Of a stretch of DNA of 64,000 bases, positions 28,762 to 55,625 are shown piece after piece (positions within the stretch are counted from its first letter, which is position 1; every line of letters starts with the position of its first letter). The position numbers and the translations under genes were made by a program. The notes beneath the pieces were generated by a model. It was not told the origin of the DNA, did no database searches, and saw nothing but the letters and a program-made list of their open reading frames with translations. This stretch comes from an uncultured Flavobacteriales bacterium (GTDB taxonomy: Bacteria; Bacteroidota; Bacteroidia; Flavobacteriales_D; Crocinitomicaceae), in assembly GCA_913059205.1 (NCBI GenBank), contig CAJXRM010000001.1, positions 22,636-86,635 of the forward strand, written 5' to 3'.

Positions 28762-28968
28762 TTGGATGGTAGAAGCTGGTTTTTATGTAATGAAACCTGT
28801 AGTTTAAAGGATAGTTTTAGTGGGAACAAGGTGTATTTGTTGCGATGTTAAAACTTAATTTGTCCGTTTTACCTATGATTTAAAGCAACTCAACGAGGAA
28901 AAATGCTTTTTAAGCGAACTCTATTGTATTCGCATTACTTTAAACACCTTATTTCGAGCGAATTGAGT

Positions 28969-28976
28969 TATATTTG
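28969..28976 (+). promoter_or_regulatory. Bacteroidetes-type -7 promoter box (TATATTTG)
   Basis: Matches TAnnTTTG inside the 5' end of the track ORF 28903..29388 and 11 nt before the internal ATG at 28987. Confidence 0.35.
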
Positions 28977-28986
28977 TTTTGCAGAT

Positions 28987-29388
28987 ATGGATACCGATTT
29001 GGAAATAACAAAGGTGATGAACATTGTTCATGGAGTAATAGAGCTAAGGTCTGATAATATTTTATCTTTTAGACCAAACGCTGCTACTTTTAAGAATTAT
29101 GATCACAAAGTTTTATCGGATTTGTTGGAAGCTTTTATTGAAATAACAGAAGGTATACCAAGACCTTATTTATGCGATAACAGTTATGTTTCAGGAATTG
29201 TTAACAAGGAGGAATTGGCCTATATGAACGAAAACTTTGGTCGCTTCGCTACACATGCAGCAATGATTACCAGTTCTAATTTGATTCGAGTACTTCTAAA
29301 CAGTTACAATACCCTTTTTAAACCAAAAGTGGAGCTTAGATTGTTCAACTCAGAGAAGAAAGCCGTTGAATGGCTTTTGTCAAAATAA
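28987..29388 (+). CDS. hypothetical protein (133 aa from the internal start), possibly STAS/SpoIIAA-like
   Basis: ORF with a promoter box upstream and a strong terminator downstream. The family call rests only on a weak resemblance. Confidence 0.35.
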   Translation: MDTDLEITKVMNIVHGVIELRSDNILSFRPNAATFKNYDHKVLSDLLEAFIEITEGIPRPYLCDNSYVSGIVNKEELAYMNENFGRFATHAAMITSSNLIRVLLNSYNTLFKPKVELRLFNSEKKAVEWLLSK

Positions 29389-29400
29389 AAGAAATAACCC

Positions 29401-29436
29401 AAAATGGCGTCCAATTCAATTGGACGCCATTTTTTT
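29401..29436. terminator. bidirectional rho-independent terminator
   Basis: AAAATGGCGTCCAATT-C-AATTGGACGCCATTTT is a perfect 16-nt-arm palindrome followed by TTT. It lies 13 nt after the plus-strand stop (29388) and abuts the stop of the minus-strand micro-ORF. Confidence 0.75.
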
Positions 29437-29518
29437 AGCAACAGCTATTTGGTGTGCATTGACACGTACATGTGCAGTTACAGTTTTGATTTGTACAGCA
29501 CGTTTCTTGATTTTCCAT
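29435..29518 (-). CDS. 27-aa cysteine-rich peptide (metallothionein-like micro-ORF), not in the ORF track
   Basis: The minus strand reads ATG GAA AAT CAA GAA ACG TGC TGT ACA AAT CAA AAC TGT AAC TGC ACA TGT ACG TGT CAA TGC ACA CCA AAT AGC TGT TGC TAA, which is MENQETCCTNQNCNCTCTCQCTPNSCC. It has 9 Cys in 27 residues. An ECF-like promoter motif lies 34 nt upstream and a terminator follows immediately. Confidence 0.5.
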   Translation of the reverse strand: MENQETCCTNQNCNCTCTCQCTPNSCC

Positions 29519-29551
29519 GACTTTTATTTTAATTAATACTCTTTATTAAAG

Positions 29552-29577
29552 AGACGGAAGAATAAAAAAAAGACGCA
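29552..29577 (-). promoter_or_regulatory. ECF-type promoter candidate TGCGTC-N15-CGTCT (upstream of the Cys-rich micro-ORF)
   Basis: The minus strand reads TGCGTC TTTTTTTTATTCTTC CGTCT. The same half-sites and identical 15-nt spacing recur at 30130-30155. Confidence 0.45.
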
Positions 29578-29580
29578 AAA

Positions 29581-30114
29581 TTAGCACGAGCAGTTATCGA
29601 TGTTGGACGACATTATATTTCCGTATCGATCTGATTGTACTGCACAACATTGTGTAAATAGTTCTTTTAACTTCTGTCTTCCACGTTGAACTCTTGACTT
29701 TACTGTAGTATAAGAGAGACCAAGGTTTTCGGCATATTCTTTTTGAGAAATTTCTCCGTAAACGGTTTTTTCCAATGCATCCTTATATTTTTCAGGTAAC
29801 TGACTAATAAAGGGCATCATGCATTTAATAAATTGTGGATTTAAGCCGGATTCTTCATTTTGTTCTTGATGAATTATTACATCTTCAACCAACGGCAATT
29901 TCTTTTTGCGATAATGATCGATAATGGTATTTCGAGTAACTTGATATATCCAACTTGCAAGTTTATTTTCATCCAAAAGTTGATTTGAGTTTTGGTGTAT
30001 TTTAATAAAAACTTCTTGAAGTATGTCTTCAGCTACTGTCTTATCATTAATTCTTGCCTTAATAAATCCTAATAATTGACCGCTAAACTCTTTCCAAATA
30101 CGCTCTGTATTCAT
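29581..30114 (-). CDS. ECF sigma-70 family factor with Cys-rich C-terminal extension (SigZ / CorE-like)
   Basis: Region 2 (AEDILQEVFIKIH, WIYQVTRNTIIDHYRKKK) and region 4 (SQKEYAENLGLSYTTVKSRVQRGRQKLK) are present. An extra tail follows (FTQCCAVQSDRYGNIMSSNIDNCSC). No anti-sigma gene is adjacent. Confidence 0.7.
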   Translation of the reverse strand: MNTERIWKEFSGQLLGFIKARINDKTVAEDILQEVFIKIHQNSNQLLDENKLASWIYQVTRNTIIDHYRKKKLPLVEDVIIHQEQNEESGLNPQFIKCMMPFISQLPEKYKDALEKTVYGEISQKEYAENLGLSYTTVKSRVQRGRQKLKELFTQCCAVQSDRYGNIMSSNIDNCSC

Positions 30115-30129
30115 ACTTTTTTATAATAA

Positions 30130-30155
30130 AGACGAATGCGAATAAAAAAGACGCA
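30130..30155 (-). promoter_or_regulatory. ECF-type promoter candidate TGCGTC-N15-CGTCT (upstream of the sigma gene)
   Basis: The minus strand reads TGCGTC TTTTTTATTCGCATT CGTCT, ending 15 nt before the sigma ATG (30114). Confidence 0.45.
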
Positions 30156-30173
30156 TTTTTAAAACGCATGAAC

Positions 30174-30818
30174 CTAATTTTGATTGTAAACTAGTGTAAA
30201 AGTTACTTTAATTTCATCTTTGTTGATGTCCTTAGCGGTTACTTTATCGCGCAAAGGAAAATCAAGGGTGTTTACGACAAAAGAACCGGATAAAATATGT
30301 TCGCCATTTTCTTTAGTTGAGGAAATAGTAACATTCATTTTCTTAGACGTATTTTCAATTGTAAGTTCGCCATTTGCTTTAGAATCTGTTATTTCTGTTA
30401 AAATAAGAGTAGAATTTGGATGTTTTTTTATATCAAATAAGCCATTCCCTTTTTCTTTGGCAATCTTAAACGAAGCCATGTCAAAAATTACTGTAGCTTT
30501 CGTTAGGGCTTCATCCGTTGTAGTTAATTCTCCGTCTTTTAATGTTGCACTTCCGTTTGAGTTTAGCTTAACGGCTCCTAATTCGATATCAACAATTTGT
30601 CCAAACAGTTTCGTTTTTTGCTTTGTCGGTTTTTGATCCAAAGTGCGCTCCCAGTCCGCGCTGCTTTTATTGGGATTTAACGTATACTCCGCTACGATTG
30701 CTTCAATTTCTTCAACGGTTTGATTATCGGATTTGGGTGTTGAATTATCCGAAGTGTTTTCTGCACATGAAGAGAATAACAATCCAATTGTACAGAATAC
30801 CATAAATGATTTTTTCAT
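30174..30818 (-). CDS. YceI-like lipoprotein
   Basis: Lipobox LLFSSCA. The pattern YTLNPNKSSADW...ATVIFDMASF...LFDIKKHPNSTLILTEI...ANGELTIENTSKKMNV resembles the YceI polyisoprenoid-binding fold. Confidence 0.4.
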   Translation of the reverse strand: MKKSFMVFCTIGLLFSSCAENTSDNSTPKSDNQTVEEIEAIVAEYTLNPNKSSADWERTLDQKPTKQKTKLFGQIVDIELGAVKLNSNGSATLKDGELTTTDEALTKATVIFDMASFKIAKEKGNGLFDIKKHPNSTLILTEITDSKANGELTIENTSKKMNVTISSTKENGEHILSGSFVVNTLDFPLRDKVTAKDINKDEIKVTFTLVYNQN

Positions 30819-31003
30819 AGAGTGAAATTTTAGGTTAGGATCTAAATATACAGAAAAGATGTGGTATTAATTTCCATTAATATCAGAAGTTCTCAGCAAA
30901 TTACAGACATTTCGATACTAAGAATTGCGTTTTGACAAGTACAAGGATTTGTTGATACTGAATTGTACGTAGCATCTATTCCTTTATAAACCGGTAGTGA
31001 TTT

Positions 31004-31936
31004 TTACATTTGCTCCAAAACTGCTATCCTTTTCTCTATTGGAGGATGAGTGGCAAAAACGCCAGAAATGGAAGCCATAAACCCTTTGGTAGATTCGCTG
31101 TTGTCGATGAACATTTGTTTTACATCGTCGCTTTTTGCTTCAATGTCTGAGTTTCCTGAAATTTTACGCAGCGCATTGGCCATAGCCAGCGGATTCTTGG
31201 TCATTTCGACTGCACCAGCATCTGCTAAATATTCGCGCTTTCGTGATAGTGCAAACTTGAAAACGATGGAAAGCGCATAAACGACCGCCGCAATTGCTAA
31301 CATTACAAGAATAGCTGCGCCTCCACCATCTTTTCCGTTGTTCTTTCTCCTCCCTGCTCCGCCGTACAATACTGAACGGAAAAGAACTTGTACAGCAAAC
31401 GCAAAAATTCCAACAAAAATGATTGTTATAATTAACAAACGAACGTCTTTGTTGCGAATGTGTGTTAATTCGTGTGCAATAACACCTTCCAACTCTCTGT
31501 CGTCCAATTTTTCAATTATTCCACGAGTTAAAGTTACAGCAAACGTTTTGTCATTAATACCGGAGGCAAAAGCATTCAAAGAATCAGTTTCAATAATGTA
31601 CAATTTAGGCATTTTCATTCCCACAGACATACACAAATTCTCCGTCAAGTTGTATATGCGCATATTGTCTTTTCGCTCTAAAGTTTTGGAATTGGTCGCC
31701 ATTTGAATAAGCGCGGAGTGAGACGCAAAGGCAATTAAAAACCAAATAAGAACCCCGGCAACTACAAATGGAATGTAGGTGATAAAACGGTAGTTAACTT
31801 CTTCCCATTCAGGTTGAAACATGAAGAAACAAAAGGCATAAACCGCTACAAAAATAAGTAGCGGAAATGCAATAAGTAAAAGAGCAGAACGTGTATTGTT
31901 TCTGCTAATTTGAGCGTGTAATCCTACGTATTTCAT
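31004..31936 (-). CDS. M48 family zinc metalloprotease (HtpX-like)
   Basis: HELTHI (HExxH) motif, four TM segments, and a C-terminal FATHPPIEKR typical of M48. Confidence 0.8.
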   Translation of the reverse strand: MKYVGLHAQISRNNTRSALLLIAFPLLIFVAVYAFCFFMFQPEWEEVNYRFITYIPFVVAGVLIWFLIAFASHSALIQMATNSKTLERKDNMRIYNLTENLCMSVGMKMPKLYIIETDSLNAFASGINDKTFAVTLTRGIIEKLDDRELEGVIAHELTHIRNKDVRLLIITIIFVGIFAFAVQVLFRSVLYGGAGRRKNNGKDGGGAAILVMLAIAAVVYALSIVFKFALSRKREYLADAGAVEMTKNPLAMANALRKISGNSDIEAKSDDVKQMFIDNSESTKGFMASISGVFATHPPIEKRIAVLEQM

Positions 31937-31943
31937 TCAATAA

Positions 31944-32507
31944 TTAGAATTTTACTTCTGGTGCAACGTCCATTTGAGCACGTCCGGCATCACCTAAATC
32001 AAACATTGGTTGAACAGTATATTTCTTAATACTTGCCACGATATTTGATGGAATGGATTCCACTGCATTGTTGTACTCTTTTGTTGCTGAGTTAAAGAAA
32101 CGACGCACGGCAGCTAATTTATTCTCAATATCCGAAATCTCGTGTTGCAATTGCATAAAGTTTGAGTTCGCTTTTAAGTCTGGATACGCTTCAATTTGAA
32201 TTTGGAAAGCGCTCATCGCCGCACCTAATTCTTTTTCTGCTGCGATTTTATCGTTTACTCCTGAAGCACCCATTGCTCGAGATCGAGCCTCCGTAACGCG
32301 AGTTAACACACCACTTTCGTGATCCATATACCCTTTTACTGCTCCCATCAATTGAGGAATCAAATCATGACGTTGTTTCAATTGCACATCAATATCTGCA
32401 AACGCATTTTCGCGGTTGTTCTTAAGTGCAACTAATTTGTTATTTGCTGAAATGTACCAAAGAATAAGAATCAATAAAATTCCTCCTCCTACTAATAATC
32501 CGATCAT
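31944..32507 (-). CDS. lemA: LemA family protein
   Basis: N-terminal TM helix, then NKLVALKNNRENAFADIDVQLKQRHDLIPQL...; 187 aa. It is immediately upstream of the M48 protease, which is a common pairing. Confidence 0.8.
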   Translation of the reverse strand: MIGLLVGGGILLILILWYISANNKLVALKNNRENAFADIDVQLKQRHDLIPQLMGAVKGYMDHESGVLTRVTEARSRAMGASGVNDKIAAEKELGAAMSAFQIQIEAYPDLKANSNFMQLQHEISDIENKLAAVRRFFNSATKEYNNAVESIPSNIVASIKKYTVQPMFDLGDAGRAQMDVAPEVKF

Positions 32508-32682: not shown

Positions 32683-33165
32683 ATGACTGCACGAGAGTAC
32701 AATTTAGCGGTAGATGATTACTCGGATAATATTTTCCGATTTGCATTGAAACACCTCAAAAACGAGATGTCAGCTAAGGATATTGTGCAAGAAACGTTTG
32801 CAAAAGTGTGGTCGAAACATGAAGACATCAACGTAGAAAAGGTGAAATCGTATTTGTTTATAACGGCTTACCACGCAATTGTAGATTGGGTGAAGAGTGA
32901 AAAGCGTTCGGGAGATATTGAGCAAACCAAAGAACAAGGAACAAGCGGGAATGTGTCATTTGACTTACAAAGTGTATTAAATGAAGCGCTTGAAAAATTA
33001 CCGGAAGTTCAGAAGTCTGTTGTTTTATTAAGAGATTATGAGGGATATAATTATGCAGAAATTTCAGAAATAACAGGACTGAATGAATCGCAAGTGAAAG
33101 TGTATATTTTTAGGGCACGATTGACTTTGCGAGAATATCTAAAACGACTTGATTTAGTAATATAA
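32683..33165 (+). CDS. ECF sigma-70 family RNA polymerase sigma factor
   Basis: 160 aa; region 2 (AKDIVQETFAKVW, YLFITAYHAIVDWVK) and region 4 (YAEISEITGLNESQVKVYIFRARLTLRE). Confidence 0.8.
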   Translation: MTAREYNLAVDDYSDNIFRFALKHLKNEMSAKDIVQETFAKVWSKHEDINVEKVKSYLFITAYHAIVDWVKSEKRSGDIEQTKEQGTSGNVSFDLQSVLNEALEKLPEVQKSVVLLRDYEGYNYAEISEITGLNESQVKVYIFRARLTLREYLKRLDLVI

Positions 33166-34163
33166 TGGAGAGAATAAGTATATTTAATTATGAAGCATTC
33201 TACCTCGATTTTCTTGAAGGAAATTTGAACGAGGAGGATACTTTGTTGCTTATGAGTTTCTTAGAGGCAAATCCAAACTTGCAAGTTGAAATGGATGACG
33301 AACTTCCGATTTTTGAGGAAGAAAACGAAGTGCTTGATAATTTTTCGAAGTTGATGCTAAAATTAAACATCGATGAAGAAGTAATCACCTCTGAGAACGT
33401 CGATTATTTTATAATTGCTCATTCAGAAGGATTGTTGGATGAGGTTAAATCAAATGAATTAACCAACTTTATTTCAGGAAATGTCGTTTTGGAGGACGAA
33501 AGTAAATTAGCTGGTTTTGTTTCTTTTCAGGCAAATACAGAAATCGTTTATGCTGATAAATTAGGATTGAAAAAGAAACGAAAAGTGTTTGTTCTTTGGC
33601 CTTATGCTTCTTCTATTGCGGCTGCTTCAGTTGTAGTTTTTTTCATGAGCATTATTGATGATGCTCCTATTTCAGTTGATCCAGTTAGAGTGAAAACGGT
33701 GAATACAGAGTTACCTAATGGAAACAACCACAAAATTGTTAAACACGATGGTGTTCACTCTTCTTCAAATTCAAAGGATGAGTTGAGAAATTCTATTAAC
33801 TCAATTAATATTAATCAGGTTGCTACTGTGGGAAAGGGAAATAAAATTAAACAGAAGGGTGTAGATAAAATAAAAAGTAATCCTGCGGGCCCTATTGCTA
33901 CTATTAATGAACAAAAATTAGCACCAATAGGAACAAGGTATTCCAACCCAACAAATACAGCAAATCAGAACAAAGAAGTAGATGTATTGGCGCTTTCTCC
34001 TAAATCGGAGATGCATAACCCAATTGAGCCTTTGACTAAGTTTGTAAGTAAAAAGACCAATACGGAAATAGATTTTAAAACGACGGAAAAGGTAGAAGAC
34101 GAACGCCGAGGATTTCATTTGAAAATTGGCAAGTTTGAAATCTCAAGAAATAAGCGCCGTTAG
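33165..34163 (+). CDS. putative membrane-anchored anti-sigma factor
   Basis: Its ATG overlaps the sigma stop by 1 nt. It has a short N-terminal cytoplasmic domain, a single TM helix (WPYASSIAAASVVVFFMSII) and a low-complexity periplasmic tail. The call rests on position only. Confidence 0.45.
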   Translation: MERISIFNYEAFYLDFLEGNLNEEDTLLLMSFLEANPNLQVEMDDELPIFEEENEVLDNFSKLMLKLNIDEEVITSENVDYFIIAHSEGLLDEVKSNELTNFISGNVVLEDESKLAGFVSFQANTEIVYADKLGLKKKRKVFVLWPYASSIAAASVVVFFMSIIDDAPISVDPVRVKTVNTELPNGNNHKIVKHDGVHSSSNSKDELRNSINSININQVATVGKGNKIKQKGVDKIKSNPAGPIATINEQKLAPIGTRYSNPTNTANQNKEVDVLALSPKSEMHNPIEPLTKFVSKKTNTEIDFKTTEKVEDERRGFHLKIGKFEISRNKRR

Positions 34164-36019
34164 ATTTTAATGAACGGTCTAGAAACAGTTGTTCCATTTA
34201 TTTCTACTTTCAAAATATAACTTCCTGAGCGAAGTTCTTTTACGTTGATCTCTCCATTAGTATAACTGCTACTTTTCAGTATTCTTCCGCTTAAATCAAC
34301 TATTGAATACTGCGTTATTTTCTCTTCTGATTGAAGAACTAACACGTCATTCGTTGGATTAGGATACATCGAAAAATGAATTGAATTCAACTTGTTTGCA
34401 GATAAAGTTGGATTGCTCCCAGGCAAATTTATTTTGGATGGATAAGTACTACTGTGATGTACCGTAATGTTTGCCACGTTTGTATCTCCGGCAACATACA
34501 TTGTTCCGCCGTTTTGAAGATTCACATCCCAACGGTAGGAGCTATTACCTCCAATATAAGCTTTGATTTTATGTCCAACCTCCCAAGTATAATTAGTCAC
34601 TGCCAATTGAACCTGTGCTTGATAAATTGTTCCCGGAGTCATAAACGCTTCGTTGGCTGCGGTATATCCATTTCTGAAACGCATTCGCTTTATTCCATCT
34701 GTAATGAGCATGTTTCTGCCATCCGGATAAACATCGACTAAACGAACAGAAATATCACAATCAGGTTGATCTGCTTCAACGAATAAATCCAAAGTTACAT
34801 TTCCGGAAATTGAAATTTCGCTTGTGGCCGTTGCAGATTCAAATGCAATTATATCACCGCGCGATTCTAACGAAATTTGGTCATATGGACCTTGGTCTAA
34901 AGTACTGTGCAATGTCGCTCCACCAATTGTTGGTGATGGGTTTCGCGGGTCTGAGACAAAACTTGTAGATCCATTTCCTGTAGAATTGGATAATTGATTG
35001 TTTTCGTTTAGAAATAATGCATCATAAGTTGTTACGTCAATTCGTGTTGAATTGGAACTGTTCCAAACATCTTTACCCATTTCGTAGTAAGTAATTAAGT
35101 CTGTGTTATTCCAGTTATTCGGGGAATCCAACAAATAATAATCTAAGAAATCTCTTGCCATTGTATTTGCTACACCTGCAGCATTCGGATAGGAAAGCTC
35201 ACCTTGTAAAGAGCTGCCAACAGTTGCTGCACCGGTTCCACCGTGTACCCATGGGCCTACCAATAACCATTGTTCGTCTTGAACCGCCAATGCAGATGAG
35301 TTACGCGTGGCTTCGTACCAGTCCAACATTTTATCAATGTTATGATCGTACCAGCCACCAATTTGAAGAGTGGGAATAATAATGTCACTAGGATACCAAG
35401 AATTGTTTTCTGAAAATGTCCAGGCTGCACTATAATAAGTGTTTGCTAGAACGATTGGAGATAGACCGTAACCAAGCGCATCCAATTGCTCTAATCGTGC
35501 TTTTTCCAAAGTACCACCGTAATAGTAACCTTCATAATGTTGTTGCGGATGAGCAACTAATGGAACAGCACAGGTGTGATTTGGATGTTGTTCTTTTGCA
35601 GTATTGTATTGTACACCTCCTAAAGCAGAAGGTCCCCACGTTCCAATTCTATCTGCATGCCACAATTGCTGCGTAATCCATTCACAAATATCATAGCCAT
35701 CTTCTCCTCGTGTAAAATTGGATAAATCCGCTCCGCTTGACCCGTAAAACCCTCTCCAATCAACAATTACCCAGATATAAGGTTGTGAATCTAAATTCAT
35801 ACCAATCCCCAACGGCAATGACCATGAAAATAAATCTTTGTTGTAAGGTGTTTGAACTAATATTACTTCGGCTGTTACCGTTGCTGTTGGGATATATACA
35901 TCGGCTTCCAAGTATTCGCCATCGCGCATTTGAATTAATATGTCGTCATACGTGGGTGTCATTTGCGCAATTGCTCCAAAGCCGAAAGTTGCGAAAACAG
36001 AAAGTAGTAGTAGTCTCAT
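34160..36019 (-). CDS. CocE/NonD (S15 X-Pro dipeptidyl-peptidase-like) family hydrolase with T9SS CTD
   Basis: Signal peptide, then VQTPYNKD, DWRGFYGSSG and WGPSALGG serine-hydrolase blocks. The C-terminal tail is FSMYPNPTNDVLVL...GSYILKVE. Confidence 0.7.
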   Translation of the reverse strand: MRLLLLSVFATFGFGAIAQMTPTYDDILIQMRDGEYLEADVYIPTATVTAEVILVQTPYNKDLFSWSLPLGIGMNLDSQPYIWVIVDWRGFYGSSGADLSNFTRGEDGYDICEWITQQLWHADRIGTWGPSALGGVQYNTAKEQHPNHTCAVPLVAHPQQHYEGYYYGGTLEKARLEQLDALGYGLSPIVLANTYYSAAWTFSENNSWYPSDIIIPTLQIGGWYDHNIDKMLDWYEATRNSSALAVQDEQWLLVGPWVHGGTGAATVGSSLQGELSYPNAAGVANTMARDFLDYYLLDSPNNWNNTDLITYYEMGKDVWNSSNSTRIDVTTYDALFLNENNQLSNSTGNGSTSFVSDPRNPSPTIGGATLHSTLDQGPYDQISLESRGDIIAFESATATSEISISGNVTLDLFVEADQPDCDISVRLVDVYPDGRNMLITDGIKRMRFRNGYTAANEAFMTPGTIYQAQVQLAVTNYTWEVGHKIKAYIGGNSSYRWDVNLQNGGTMYVAGDTNVANITVHHSSTYPSKINLPGSNPTLSANKLNSIHFSMYPNPTNDVLVLQSEEKITQYSIVDLSGRILKSSSYTNGEINVKELRSGSYILKVEINGTTVSRPFIKI

Positions 36020-54164: not shown

Positions 54165-55625
54165 ATGAGCAAGCAAAATCTTTCTATTTACAATAGTCTG
54201 TCGGGACAAAAAGAAGCATTTCAACCAATTTACGAAGGTCGAATTGGCATGTATGTTTGTGGACCAACACTTTACAGTGAGCCGCATATGGGAAACATGC
54301 GAACGTTCATTAATTTTGATTTGATTTACCGTTATTTATTGGTGGCAGGATACAAGGTGAAGTACGTGCGTAATATCACTGACGCTGGTCATATTACGAA
54401 TAGTGCAGGTGAAGCAGTTGATAGCATTGGAAAAGCGGCGCGACAAGAACAAATGCAATCGCTGGAAATCGTTTATAAGTACAATGTGATTTTTCAAGAT
54501 TTACAACGTACATATAATATGTTGCCTCCGAGTATTGAGCCAACGGCAACGGGTCACATTCAAGAACAAATAGAAATTATTGAGAAAATCATCGAAAATG
54601 GATTCGCCTATACAGTGAACGGTTCGGTTTATTTTGACGTGAAAGCATACAGTGAAAAACATCAATATGGAATTCTAAGTGGAAGAAAGATTGACGAGTT
54701 GGCAGAAGAAACACGCGAATTAAATGCACAGGACGAGAAGCGTTTCTTTGCAGATTTCGCCTTGTGGAAGAAAGCGAATCCTGAAGACATGCAAATATGG
54801 CGTTCTCCTTGGGGCGATGGCAATCCAGGTTGGCACATCGAATGTACAGCAATGAGCACAAAGTACTTGGGAAATCATTTTGATATACACGGTGGTGGAA
54901 TGGATTTGAAATTCCCGCATCATGAAGATGAAATTGCACAAAACTGTGGTTCATTGGGTTGTTCACCAGCTAAATATTGGATGCACGCGAATATGTTAAA
55001 TGTGAACGGTCAAAAAATGAGCAAGTCCTTTGGTAATTACTTTTTACCAATGGAAATTGTCAATGGCTCAACAGACTTATTTGAAAAACCATTTTCTCCA
55101 AATGTTATTCGATTTGCCATGATGCAAGCACATTACCGCAGCAACATGGACATGACAAACGATGCACTTATCGCGACGGAAAAAGGATACAACAGATTAA
55201 TTGAAGCAATGAAGACCTTAAGTTCGTTAAAAACGAGCAATGAATCTTCTCAAAATATAGAGGAAATGGTGGAATCCTTTTATGCTGCTATGAATGACGA
55301 TTTTAATGCACCAATTTTGATTGCCAATTTATTCGATGCCGCAAAATTCATCAACACTGTAAAAGATGACAACGCGACAATCAGCGCTAGTGATTTGGAG
55401 TTGCTAACTAAAGCAATGAACACCTTTGTTTTTGATGTGCTCGGAATGAAAGCGGAAGCTGAATCGGCGAATGATCGATTGAGTCCTGTTATGGATTTGG
55501 TTTTGGATTTGCGTCAAGAAGCACGTACAAATAAGGATTGGACCACTTCAGATAAAATTAGAGACGGTCTAGCAGCGGCAGGCATTACGGTCAAAGATTC
55601 AAAAGAAGGAACAAGCTGGAATTAG
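54165..55625 (+). CDS. cysS: cysteine--tRNA ligase
   Basis: The start is moved to MSKQNLSIYNS. PHMGN (HIGH-type) and KMSKS motifs are present, plus GWHIECTAM and HGGGMDLKFPHHEDE. Confidence 0.9.
   Translation: MSKQNLSIYNSLSGQKEAFQPIYEGRIGMYVCGPTLYSEPHMGNMRTFINFDLIYRYLLVAGYKVKYVRNITDAGHITNSAGEAVDSIGKAARQEQMQSLEIVYKYNVIFQDLQRTYNMLPPSIEPTATGHIQEQIEIIEKIIENGFAYTVNGSVYFDVKAYSEKHQYGILSGRKIDELAEETRELNAQDEKRFFADFALWKKANPEDMQIWRSPWGDGNPGWHIECTAMSTKYLGNHFDIHGGGMDLKFPHHEDEIAQNCGSLGCSPAKYWMHANMLNVNGQKMSKSFGNYFLPMEIVNGSTDLFEKPFSPNVIRFAMMQAHYRSNMDMTNDALIATEKGYNRLIEAMKTLSSLKTSNESSQNIEEMVESFYAAMNDDFNAPILIANLFDAAKFINTVKDDNATISASDLELLTKAMNTFVFDVLGMKAEAESANDRLSPVMDLVLDLRQEARTNKDWTTSDKIRDGLAAAGITVKDSKEGTSWN

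What the first reader, a model, noticed from the sequence alone, without database searches (positions are those of the whole stretch)
29552..30155. The same TGCGTC-N15-CGTCT motif precedes both the Cys-tailed ECF sigma gene and the Cys-rich micro-ORF: a putative anti-sigma-less metal/redox regulon
On the minus strand, TGCGTC TTTTTTATTCGCATT CGTCT lies at 30155-30130, 15 nt before the sigma ATG. TGCGTC TTTTTTTTATTCTTC CGTCT lies at 29577-29552, before the micro-ORF. The half-sites are identical and so is the 15-nt spacing.

A -10 element containing CGTC is typical of ECF promoters, and ECF sigma genes are usually autoregulated. The duplication therefore suggests that the sigma factor drives both itself and the peptide.

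The sigma has a C-terminal extension (QCCAVQSDRYGNIMSSNIDNCSC) and no adjacent anti-sigma gene. That matches the CorE-type and SigZ-type ECF groups, in which a Cys-rich domain replaces the anti-sigma factor and senses metals directly. A sensor sigma plus a single Cys-rich effector would form a complete two-gene stress module.
Basis: partly seen in the sequence, partly recalled or inferred. Interest (0 to 1): 0.7.

Follow-up and report, generated by a model that had tools for sequence, protein, structure and literature searches.

The report
SigZ sigma promoters driving cysteine-rich micro-protein
The repeated motif is the conserved promoter of a SigZ-type sigma factor that lacks an anti-sigma partner; it sits before the sigma gene and before an unannotated 27-residue cysteine-rich peptide, a pairing found across many bacteria that links this poorly understood sigma family to defence against arsenic-like toxic metals.

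Summary
TGCGTC-N15-CGTCT occurs exactly twice in 64 kb, against 0.02 expected. One copy lies 15 nt before the sigma ATG. The other starts 3 nt after the sigma stop codon and lies 33 nt before a 27-codon ORF that is 33% Cys and ends at a strong terminator.

The sigma is a SigZ-family ECF (TIGR02959, above cutoff). It has five conserved Cys and no conserved neighbour apart from the peptide.

Comparative data turn the guess into a strong prediction. In 76 of 80 sigZ loci from several phyla the consensus tTTGCGTC[C/T]TTTT-N10/11-CGTCTATA is present. It lies upstream of sigZ in 49 loci and just downstream in 57. A motif-only metagenome scan returned 34 stretches, and 27 of them carry sigZ.

The downstream gene is usually a Cys-rich micro-protein. 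In other lineages it is ArsM, ArsP, ArsI/CadI or DUF2703, and one further site precedes cysE-cysK. Two loci sit inside arsR/acr3/arsC clusters.

Best reading: an autoregulated sigma with an on-board thiolate sensor for a soft metal(loid) drives a metallothionein-like sink. The published ECF238 description states that no conserved promoter or autoregulation exists, so this refines it. No experiment supports the inducer; arsenic is inferred from other lineages.

The parts
30130..30155 (-). Predicted SigZ-dependent promoter of the sigma gene. The -35 element is TGCGTC followed by a T-run; the -10 element is CGTCT. It implies positive autoregulation.
   Evidence: Exact motif match. Scores 29.5 bits on the cross-genome matrix. 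A homologous site lies within 150 nt upstream of sigZ in 49 of 80 loci. It lies 15 nt before the ATG. In relatives the distance from CGTC to the ATG is never below 8 nt and is often 8-9 nt, which suggests leaderless mRNAs.
29581..30114 (-). sigZ: a 177-aa SigZ-family ECF sigma factor (ECF238, formerly ECF24) with an on-board Cys sensor formed by C98, C156-C157 and C175-x-C177.
   Evidence: TIGR02959 scores 194.6 bits, above the 168.65 cutoff. Sigma70_r2 and r4_2 are the only domains. C98 and C157 are invariant, and C156, C175 and C177 are at least 90% conserved in 31 homologues. The same Cys pattern is present in 63 of the 80 sigmas compared.
29552..29577 (-). Second predicted SigZ-dependent promoter. 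It starts 3 nt after the sigZ stop codon and drives the micro-ORF.
   Evidence: Exact motif match. It is the top-scoring site in the window at 32.5 bits. A homologous site lies directly after the sigZ stop in 57 of 80 loci.
29435..29518 (-). 27-codon micro-ORF MENQETCCTNQNCNCTCTCQCTPNSCC: 9 Cys (33%) and no aromatic or hydrophobic core residues. Predicted metallothionein-like thiolate peptide.
   Evidence: Cys-rich ORFs occupy the same position in about 38 loci. The Bacteroidota form has a shared M[EK]NQ start, CxC runs and a CC end. Synonymous codon differences exceed non-synonymous ones between close relatives: 11 vs 3 and 12 vs 5. It is the only hydrophilic ORF in the window with at least 15% Cys. 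No Pfam or NCBIfam family matches it.
29401..29433 (-). Intrinsic terminator that closes the sigZ/micro-ORF unit. It is shared with the convergent DUF7793 gene.
   Evidence: 15-bp stem with 6 G-C pairs, followed by a T-rich tail. It is the only terminator-like site in 28800-31000. No terminator lies between sigZ and the micro-ORF.

Best explanation
The two motifs are copies of the promoter recognised by the SigZ-family ECF sigma factor encoded between them.

The first promoter, P1 (30155-30130), gives positive autoregulation of sigZ through a very short 5' leader. The second, P2 (29577-29552), begins 3 nt after the sigZ stop codon. It transcribes a 27-residue, 33%-Cys peptide and ends at a strong terminator. 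No terminator separates the two genes, so P1 transcripts should also read into the micro-ORF, and P2 adds extra peptide expression.

The sigma has no anti-sigma factor. Five conserved cysteines most likely form an on-board thiolate site: C98 in the sigma2-sigma4 linker, the vicinal pair C156-C157, and C175-x-C177 at the C-terminus. Binding of a soft metal(loid) at this site would switch the sigma to its active conformation, as shown for CorE and CorE2. As(III) or methylarsenite is the best-supported candidate, judging from the regulon in other phyla. Cd, Zn, Cu(I) and Hg remain alternatives.

The peptide would be a metallothionein-like sink. By binding the inducer it would both detoxify it and shut the sigma off, giving negative feedback. 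ArsM, ArsP and ArsI would do the same in lineages where they occupy the peptide's position.

Shown: the sequence features, the family assignment, the cross-phylum conservation of motif position, orientation and spacing, the conservation and purifying selection of the peptide ORF, and the identities of the alternative target genes.

Inferred: that SigZ itself reads the motif, that the cysteines bind a metal(loid), which one it is, and that the peptide binds it.
For: Motif statistics in the window: 2 matches against 0.02 expected. The two sites score 32.5 and 29.5 bits; the next site scores 14.6 and the best shuffle 21.

Phylogenetic footprint: a search seeded only with the window's half-sites found GCGTC-N14-17-CGTC about 40 nt upstream of sigZ and just after its stop codon in most of 80 loci. 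These come from Bacteroidota, Ignavibacteriota, Bacillota, Chloroflexota, Cyanobacteria, Planctomycetota and Acidobacteriota. The consensus from 107 sites is tTTGCGTC[C/T]TTTT-N-CGTCTATA, with a spacer of 15 nt (68 sites) or 16 nt (38 sites) and near-background composition in the central spacer. 76 of 80 loci have at least one site scoring 20 bits or more, and five shuffles of all loci gave none.

Reverse test: a motif-only scan of metagenome contigs gave 34 stretches, and 27 of them encode a sigZ homologue.

Promoter-like geometry: sites are always on the strand of the downstream gene. CGTC lies 8 nt or more before the sigZ ATG, with 13 of 47 at 8-9 nt. The median distance to target-gene ATGs is 43 nt. 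The TGCGTC-T-run / N15-16 / CGTC layout parallels the ECF architecture, for example the B. subtilis SigW promoter TGAAAC-N16-CGTA (my own knowledge).

Sigma features: TIGR02959 above cutoff, conserved Cys, and no conserved neighbour.

Targets: about 38 Cys-rich small proteins, 12 ArsM by sequence similarity (three of them plus one metagenome ArsM scanned, NF008823 above its cutoff), 3 ArsP_1 permeases, 2 DUF2703 after sigZ (a further site in L077 precedes another), and 1 ArsI/CadI (above cutoff). In the metagenome loci, a site also precedes cysE-cysK in L088 and ArsI/CadI in L092. sigZ lies inside clusters holding ArsR, ArsC, a MIP channel or Acr3 in L074 and L077.

Peptide coding evidence: 11 synonymous vs 3 non-synonymous and 12 vs 5 codon differences between close relatives.

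Literature: ECF238 members are proposed to be activated by metal binding to the C-terminal and linker cysteines, and this is demonstrated for CorE2 (PMC7826278; PMC8999054).
Against: No transcription start site, expression or binding data exist for this or any close relative.

The published ECF238 description reports no conserved promoter and no autoregulation, and says B. subtilis SigZ appears not to be autoregulated. The motif may therefore not hold for the whole family.

The window contains no arsenic gene, so the inducer is extrapolated from other lineages.

The -35 element TGCGTC lacks the AAC core typical of ECF promoters.

The weight matrix was trained on the same loci it was used to count. 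The seed regex and the metagenome scan are independent of it.

The AlphaFold model gives the C-terminal tail only pLDDT 56-63 and cannot show a Cys cluster.
Confidence: 0.7

Rival explanations
1. The architecture is the same (SigZ promoter pair plus Cys-rich peptide), but the signal is thiol oxidation or electrophile stress, not a metal(loid). The sigma's cysteines would form disulfides, and the peptide would act as a sacrificial thiol buffer.
For: Five conserved Cys include a vicinal CC pair and a CxC. One relative places a SigZ-type promoter before cysE-cysK, which supply cysteine. Other ECF systems use Cys redox switches, for example SigK, noted in PMC7826278.
Against: The non-peptide targets are arsenic- or soft-metal-specific: ArsM, ArsP, ArsI/CadI, DUF2703, and a MerT-like gene after ArsM. 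Some loci sit in arsR/acr3/arsC clusters. No thioredoxin, peroxiredoxin or similar redox enzyme was found directly behind the motif in the loci examined. Extra cysteine supply is equally needed for making thiolate ligands.
Confidence: 0.15
2. The motif is an operator for a different DNA-binding regulator, such as an ArsR/MerR-type protein binding the direct repeat GCGTC...CGTC. It would be co-inherited with sigZ but not read by it.
For: The two half-sites form a direct repeat about two helical turns apart. Target promoters carry an additional conserved block just downstream (GG-N-TG-W-AA) that could be an operator. The -35 lacks the usual AAC.
Against: No other regulator gene is conserved beside the motif; only sigZ is. 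The site is strictly oriented with the downstream gene and lies at promoter-like distances, never closer than 8 nt to an ATG. CGTC(T) at -10 with a spacer of 15-16 nt and a T-run after the -35 is the ECF layout. No sigma-70-like promoter is predicted at either site, so this motif would be the only promoter available.
Confidence: 0.07
3. The micro-ORF is not a metal-binding peptide. It would instead be a RiPP/lantibiotic-type precursor, a small regulatory partner of the sigma (a novel anti-sigma), or an untranslated RNA.
For: One homologue is auto-named 'Lantibiotic' in UniRef. Genes co-transcribed with ECF sigmas are usually anti-sigma factors. The shortest homologues are not called as genes in public collections.
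Against: No modification enzyme or transporter is conserved nearby. There is no leader/core organisation, and length varies from 20 to 89 aa while 24-34% Cys is kept. In other lineages detoxification enzymes and permeases take the same position, which argues for an effector rather than an anti-sigma. The excess of synonymous changes shows the ORF is translated.
Confidence: 0.06
4. The two matches are a chance or local-duplication artefact with no function.
For: The genome is AT-rich, and T-runs are common in intergenic DNA.
Against: Only 0.02 matches are expected. The spacers differ while the half-sites are conserved. The same arrangement recurs in about 100 independent loci from several phyla.
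Confidence: 0.01

Closest known systems
CorE / CorE2 of Myxococcus xanthus (former group ECF44, now inside ECF238)
   Same: An ECF sigma without an anti-sigma factor. Cys in the sigma2-sigma4 linker plus a Cys-rich C-terminal extension of about 20 aa act as an on-board metal sensor. The targets are metal-detoxification genes (PMC7826278, PMC8999054, PMC6851896).
   Different: The defining CxC motif in the linker is absent. Only a single invariant Cys (C98) is present. The tail motif is CC-x4-D-x2-GN-x8-9-CxC. The regulon is Cys-rich peptides and arsenic genes rather than Cu/Cd/Zn P-type ATPases or CDF transporters. The promoter is TGCGTC-T-run/CGTCTATA. The inducer is unknown.
Bacillus subtilis SigZ (ECF238s9; TIGR02959 family)
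   Same: Same HMM family, scoring above cutoff. No anti-sigma factor. C-terminal cysteines are present.
   Different: B. subtilis SigZ has no known signal or regulon and is reported as apparently not autoregulated. In the clade studied here the promoter is conserved upstream of the gene itself, with a conserved adjacent target. The B. subtilis locus was not examined here.
ArsR/SmtB-controlled ars operons
   Same: Cysteine-thiolate sensing of As(III). They control ArsM, ArsP, ArsI and Acr3, the same genes found behind the SigZ-type promoter in other phyla.
   Different: ArsR is a repressor released by As(III). Here the sensor would be the sigma subunit itself, acting positively. No ArsR gene is present at the window locus. 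In L074 and L077 both systems coexist.
Bacterial metallothioneins (SmtA/BmtA, MymT)
   Same: A small, Cys-rich, hydrophilic peptide with no aromatic residues and CxC/CC motifs, induced together with a metal-stress regulon.
   Different: No sequence homology to any Pfam or NCBIfam family. It is shorter (27 aa), has no His, and is rich in N, Q and T. It is unannotated, or not even called as a gene, in public data. Metal binding is untested.
OrbS of Burkholderia cenocepacia (ECF sigma with an on-board iron sensor)
   Same: The concept is the same: a Cys-rich C-terminal extension on an ECF sigma senses a metal directly (PMC9023288, title and abstract as listed).
   Different: OrbS is an iron-starvation sigma in a different ECF group, and metal binding inhibits it. 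Its targets are siderophore genes.

Membership tests
SigZ family / ECF238 (former ECF24) | Scores above the curated cutoff of the SigZ HMM | tested here: met
   TIGR02959 scores 194.6 bits against a cutoff of 168.65. The second model, NF007215, scores 205.2, just below its cutoff of 212.
SigZ family / ECF238 (former ECF24) | Only sigma2 and sigma4 domains, with a short (~20 aa) Cys-rich C-terminal extension and Cys in the linker | tested here: met
   Sigma70_r2 and r4_2 are the only domains. C98 (linker), C156, C157, C175 and C177 are conserved.
SigZ family / ECF238 (former ECF24) | No anti-sigma factor encoded nearby | tested here: met
   The neighbours are YceI-like and DUF7793 genes. Neither is found near sigZ in 114 other loci.
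SigZ family / ECF238 (former ECF24) | Assignment by the ECF Hub group HMMs | not testable with these tools
   The ECF Hub models are not available here. Membership is inferred from the TIGR02959 match and the described group features.
CorE-like sigma factors (ECF44 in the strict sense) | CxC motif in the sigma2-sigma4 linker | tested here: not met
   The linker reads FIKCMMPF, with a single Cys. Only C98 is invariant in the alignment. CxC is stated to be restricted to the ECF44 clade.
CorE-like sigma factors (ECF44 in the strict sense) | C-terminal Cys-rich domain | tested here: met
   The tail is QCCAVQSDRYGNIMSSNIDNCSC, with conserved CC and CxC.
CorE-like sigma factors (ECF44 in the strict sense) | Metal-dependent activation | not testable with these tools
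   Requires in vitro transcription or reporter assays.
ECF-type autoregulated promoter | Bipartite -35/-10 with fixed spacing, CGT(C) in the -10, located upstream of the sigma's own gene and conserved among orthologues | tested here: met
   TGCGTC-N15/16-CGTC lies upstream of sigZ in 49 of 80 loci and after it in 57 of 80. The reverse scan recovers sigZ.
ECF-type autoregulated promoter | Canonical AAC core in the -35 element | tested here: not met
   The -35 is TGCGTC (G 91% / A 8% at the third position), followed by a T-run.
ECF-type autoregulated promoter | Mapped transcription start and sigma dependence | not testable with these tools
   No transcript data are available.
Metallothionein (functional class) | Small size, at least 15-30% Cys in CxC/CC motifs, and no aromatic residues | tested here: met
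   27 aa, 9 Cys (33%), CC at residues 7-8 and 26-27, a run of CxC motifs, and no F, W, Y or H.
Metallothionein (functional class) | Homology to a described metallothionein family | tested here: not met
   No Pfam or NCBIfam match for the window peptide. No NCBIfam match for it or for nine homologues, even at E <= 1.
Metallothionein (functional class) | Metal(loid)-thiolate cluster formation | not testable with these tools
   Needs peptide chemistry (ICP-MS, ESI-MS, UV titration).
ars (arsenic resistance) regulon | Presence of arsenic-specific genes under the same control | tested here: inconclusive
   There are none in the window. In other lineages ArsM, ArsP, ArsI/CadI and DUF2703 follow the same motif, and sigZ lies in arsR/arsC/acr3 clusters.

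The most novel reading that the evidence does not exclude
SigZ-family sigma factors would be direct sensors of arsenite or other soft metalloids, making them the first sigma-factor-based arsenic regulators, acting positively and in parallel to ArsR repressors. Their conserved first target in Bacteroidota would be a previously unannotated family of metallothionein-like micro-proteins (20-90 aa), mostly too short to be called as genes. This would give B. subtilis SigZ and the roughly 85% of ECF238 with no known function both a signal and a regulon.
Probability: 0.35. Interest if true: 0.85.

Novelty: new variant of a known kind. Interest (0 to 1): 0.68.

Why it matters
SigZ-type sigma factors (the ECF24 part of ECF238) are widespread, yet they have no known signal, promoter or regulon. 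The reference classification states that they lack a conserved promoter and are not autoregulated.

This locus and about 100 relatives show the opposite for a large clade. They have a sharply defined promoter, autoregulation and a conserved target set: Cys-rich micro-proteins, ArsM, ArsP, ArsI/CadI, DUF2703 and cysE-cysK.

That makes the question of what SigZ senses and controls directly testable with one reporter and a panel of metal(loid)s. It also points to a positive, sigma-level arsenic or soft-metal sensor, and it exposes a family of metallothionein-like peptides that gene callers miss. A compact sensor-promoter pair of this kind would also be a candidate orthogonal metal(loid) biosensor part.

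Tried and rejected
- **Chance.** Rejected by the shuffles.
- **Further sites in the window.** None. The 14.6-bit hit at 54692-54716 is below the shuffle maximum.
- **RNA element.** The Rfam search over 29200-30400 gave only sub-threshold noise. The 5'UTRs of 53 target promoters are no more structured than shuffles (median z +0.27).
- **Conserved neighbours as hidden partners.** The YceI-like gene and the DUF7793 gene (a weak SpoIIAA-like hit) are absent from the other loci.
- **Arsenic genes in the window.** No homologues of the ArsM, ArsP, ArsI or DUF2703 proteins found at related loci. The genes examined within about 10 kb on either side are housekeeping genes or a second ECF system.
- **Known family for the peptides.** No NCBIfam hit even at E <= 1. 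Exact look-ups give 'hypothetical protein' or nothing.
- **Solved structures.** Only generic ECF sigmas matched; no SigZ or CorE structure exists.
- **AlphaFold2 model.** Mean pLDDT is 77, but the linker (residues 75-91) is below 50 and the tail is 56-63. No coordinates are returned, so Cys clustering could not be assessed. No fold search was run because it would not address the question.
- **Motif hits without sigZ.** Four metagenome hits (L089, L099, L102, L105) are one recurrent chance match. It lies antisense to a Lys/Arg-rich coding stretch.
- **Literature.** No paper in the held library links SigZ, ECF24 or ECF238 to arsenic, to this motif or to Cys-rich peptides. Staron et al. 2009 is not held. 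Rhodius et al. 2013 does not mention ECF24 or ECF44 in its main text.
Full report
**1. The observation**

Reading 28800-30600 on the minus strand shows both sites exactly as described. The first is TGCGTC-TTTTTTATTCGCATT-CGTCT at 30155-30130. It ends 15 nt before the ATG (30114) of a 177-aa ORF (29581-30114). The second is TGCGTC-TTTTTTTTATTCTTC-CGTCT at 29577-29552. It begins 3 nt after that ORF's stop codon and ends 33 nt before the ATG (29518) of a 27-codon ORF, MENQETCCTNQNCNCTCTCQCTPNSCC.

The pattern has two matches in 64 kb against 0.02 expected. One mismatch adds nothing.

A 15-bp-stem terminator (29433-29401) follows the micro-ORF directly. No terminator separates the two ORFs, and neither site is accompanied by a sigma-70-like promoter.

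**2. The proteins**

The 177-aa protein scores above the curated cutoff of the SigZ model TIGR02959 (194.6 vs 168.65 bits). It contains only sigma-70 regions 2 and 4.

In an alignment with 30 homologues, C98 (linker) and C157 are invariant. C156, C175 and C177 are at least 90% conserved. The resulting pattern is C(linker)...CC-x4-D-x2-GN-x8-9-CxC.

The flanking genes are a YceI-like lipoprotein gene upstream and a convergent DUF7793 gene. Neither is an anti-sigma factor, and neither recurs beside sigZ elsewhere.

The micro-ORF has no Pfam or NCBIfam match.

According to the ECF re-classification, B. subtilis SigZ and the former ECF24 group now sit with the CorE-like ECF44 group in ECF238. Members have a Cys-rich tail of about 20 aa, Cys in the linker and no anti-sigma. 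Only CorE and CorE2 have been studied (PMC7826278; PMC8999054).

**3. Comparative test of the motif**

A scan of one genome per species with the sigma alignment returned 80 loci from several phyla. These include Bacteroidota, Ignavibacteriota/Kapaibacteria, Bacillota (Paenibacillus, Ornithinibacillus, Thermincola), Chloroflexota, Cyanobacteria, Planctomycetota and Acidobacteriota.

A regex taken only from the window's half-sites (GCGTC-N14-17-CGTC) hit about 40 nt upstream of sigZ and just after its stop in most loci. It hit almost nowhere else.

From 107 such sites the consensus is tTTGCGTC[C/T]TTTT-N-CGTCTATA. The spacer is 15 nt in 68 sites and 16 nt in 38, and the central part of the spacer is near background composition.

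With a weight matrix at 20 bits or more:
- 76 of 80 loci have at least one site.
- 49 have one upstream of sigZ, 57 have one just downstream, and 41 have both.
- Five shuffles of all loci gave zero hits.

The matrix is circular with respect to these loci. The seed regex is not, and neither is the reverse experiment. A motif-only scan of metagenome contigs (TTGCGTCYTTTT-N10-CGTCTATA) gave 34 stretches, 27 of which encode a sigZ homologue. Four more are one recurrent chance match antisense to a Lys/Arg-rich coding stretch. Three lie near contig ends or on very short contigs, and one of those is followed by ArsM.

Sites are always co-oriented with the next gene. CGTC lies at least 8 nt before the sigZ ATG, and 13 of 47 sites lie at 8-9 nt, which implies leaderless mRNAs. 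The median distance to target-gene ATGs is 43 nt.

This geometry, the CGTC -10 and the T-run after the -35 fit an ECF promoter. The -35 itself, TGCGTC, is atypical because it lacks AAC.

Within the window only the two sites score high: 32.5 and 29.5 bits, against 14.6 for the next site and 21 for the best shuffle.

**4. What lies behind the motif**

Of the 57 downstream sites:
- About 38 precede a Cys-rich small protein of 20-125 aa with 9-34% Cys. The Bacteroidota form starts M[EK]NQ, carries CxC runs and ends in CC.
- 12 precede a protein similar to arsenite methyltransferase ArsM. Three of these, and one ArsM from a metagenome locus, were scanned, and all score above the NF008823 cutoff.
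- 3 precede an ArsP_1 permease.
- 2 precede a DUF2703 protein. A further site in L077 precedes another.
- 1 precedes an ArsI/CadI enzyme (above cutoff).
- 1 precedes a 2Fe-2S domain protein with a Cys-rich N-terminus.

Most of the 16 other sites also precede Cys-rich ORFs or DUF2703.

Additional sites in the metagenome loci precede a cysE(EpsC)-cysK operon, a PAP2-like phosphatase plus a PatB C-S lyase, and ArsI/CadI.

In a Chloroflexia genome (L074), sigZ-arsM follows an ArsR-ArsC fusion gene, a MIP channel gene and arsC. In Thermincola (L077), sigZ is followed by two DUF2703 genes, arsR and acr3. In several Bacteroidota, ArsM is followed by a MerT-like Cys-rich membrane protein.

The sigma's Cys pattern is the same in peptide-, ArsM-, ArsI- and DUF2703-linked loci. 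ArsP-linked sigmas lack the linker Cys but carry a CCCC tail.

**5. Is the micro-ORF a gene?**

Its position, start context and Cys-rich composition are conserved while length and sequence drift. Between close relatives, synonymous codon differences outnumber non-synonymous ones: 11 vs 3 for L018/L087 and 12 vs 5 for L006/L104.

It is the only hydrophilic ORF with at least 15% Cys in the window.

Public collections do not contain the short versions at all. The longer ones are labelled 'hypothetical protein', apart from one automatic 'Metallothionein' and one 'Lantibiotic' label.

**6. Mechanism proposed**

SigZ-RNAP initiates at P1 (autoregulation) and at P2 (peptide). P1 transcripts should read through into the micro-ORF.

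The conserved cysteines form an on-board thiolate site whose occupation by a soft metal(loid) activates the sigma, by analogy with CorE and CorE2.

The peptide sequesters the inducer, giving detoxification plus negative feedback. This is the same logic as ArsM, ArsP or ArsI at the equivalent position in other phyla.

Vicinal CC pairs are classic As(III) ligands in the metallochaperone ArsD (my own knowledge). Together with the arsenic-specific targets, this makes As(III) or MAs(III) the leading candidate. For this marine-type Flavobacteriales genome, Cd, Zn, Cu(I) and Hg cannot be excluded.

The steps that are shown and those that are inferred are listed under the best explanation.

**7. Comparison with what is known**

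The kind is known: an ECF sigma without an anti-sigma and with a Cys-rich sensor tail, as in CorE and CorE2.

Strict CorE-like membership fails on the linker CxC motif. SigZ/ECF238 membership holds.

[quoted passage not shown] The present data contradict that for a large, multi-phylum SigZ clade. A likely reason is that pooling all subgroups blurred the motif and that the main neighbour is an uncalled micro-ORF.

I found no paper in the held library connecting SigZ, ECF24 or ECF238 with arsenic, with this motif or with Cys-rich peptides.

**8. Verdict**

It is refined in two ways: the sigma is SigZ-type rather than CorE-type, and the signal is probably a soft metalloid rather than generic redox stress.

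This is a new variant of a known kind, with a testable and fairly surprising extension. Everything functional remains prediction.

Noticed in passing
L001-L080, downstream (target) promoters; window 29535-29551: Target promoters carry a third conserved block 9-17 nt after the C of CGTC: CGTCTATA-GG-N-TG-W-AA. G is 49-61% at positions 9-10 and A is 71-77% at positions 15-17, across phyla. It is absent from the sigZ-upstream promoters, except that the leaderless ones read AGGTTATG at the same place. It may be the start-site/initially transcribed region or an operator. In the window's copy it is degenerate.
   Followed up: partly
L088 11118-12902; L082 5125-7216: SigZ-type promoters also precede a cysE(EpsC)-cysK cysteine-synthesis operon. 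In another contig one precedes a PAP2-like phosphatase plus a PatB C-S lyase. This suggests the regulon can include thiol supply.
   Followed up: partly
L074 847-4630; L077 2932-6543: In a Chloroflexia genome and in Thermincola ferriacetica, sigZ lies inside canonical arsenic clusters. These hold an ArsR-ArsC fusion, a MIP channel, ArsC and ArsM in the first, and two DUF2703 genes, ArsR and Acr3 in the second. A sigma-based and a repressor-based system therefore coexist.
   Followed up: partly
L037 4389-4913 (also L036 and L060): ArsM is followed by a 167-178-aa membrane protein with a GGACGVACAASGCCG segment. It is distantly similar to the mercuric transporters MerT/MerTP.
   Followed up: partly
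L001 3001-3534; L081 487-1010; L103 10487-11010: In these contigs sigZ appears interrupted, either by a premature stop or by two tblastn segments in different frames. The downstream promoter and the Cys-rich ORF are intact. This could be sequencing error or a decaying sigma gene.
   Followed up: no
L089, L099, L102, L105 (e.g. L105 5071-5100): The motif also matches antisense to a Lys/Arg-rich C-terminal coding stretch (KRKKRRKKRKKRRKKRAK) of a 393-aa protein on related metagenome contigs. This is a recurrent false positive, not a promoter.
   Followed up: yes
window 32683-34163 (+): A second ECF sigma gene of 160 aa lies here. Its best match is the GFO_1088/PG0214 family at 120 bits, below the cutoff of 130. 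Its stop overlaps the start of a 332-aa ORF with no Pfam match, which is probably its anti-sigma factor.
   Followed up: partly
window 31004-32507 (-): A LemA-family gene and a peptidase M48 (HtpX-like) gene lie in tandem just upstream of the YceI-like gene.
   Followed up: no
window 28903-29433: The terminator after the micro-ORF (29401-29433) also serves the convergent DUF7793 gene (28903-29388), which has a weak SpoIIAA-like match. That gene is not conserved near sigZ elsewhere.
   Followed up: yes
window 34160-36019 (-): An S15-family peptidase carries a type IX secretion C-terminal sorting domain. This is consistent with a Bacteroidota origin (Flavobacteriales, Crocinitomicaceae-like) for the 36% G+C window. 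The closest sigZ homologues come from Crocinitomicaceae MAGs.
   Followed up: no
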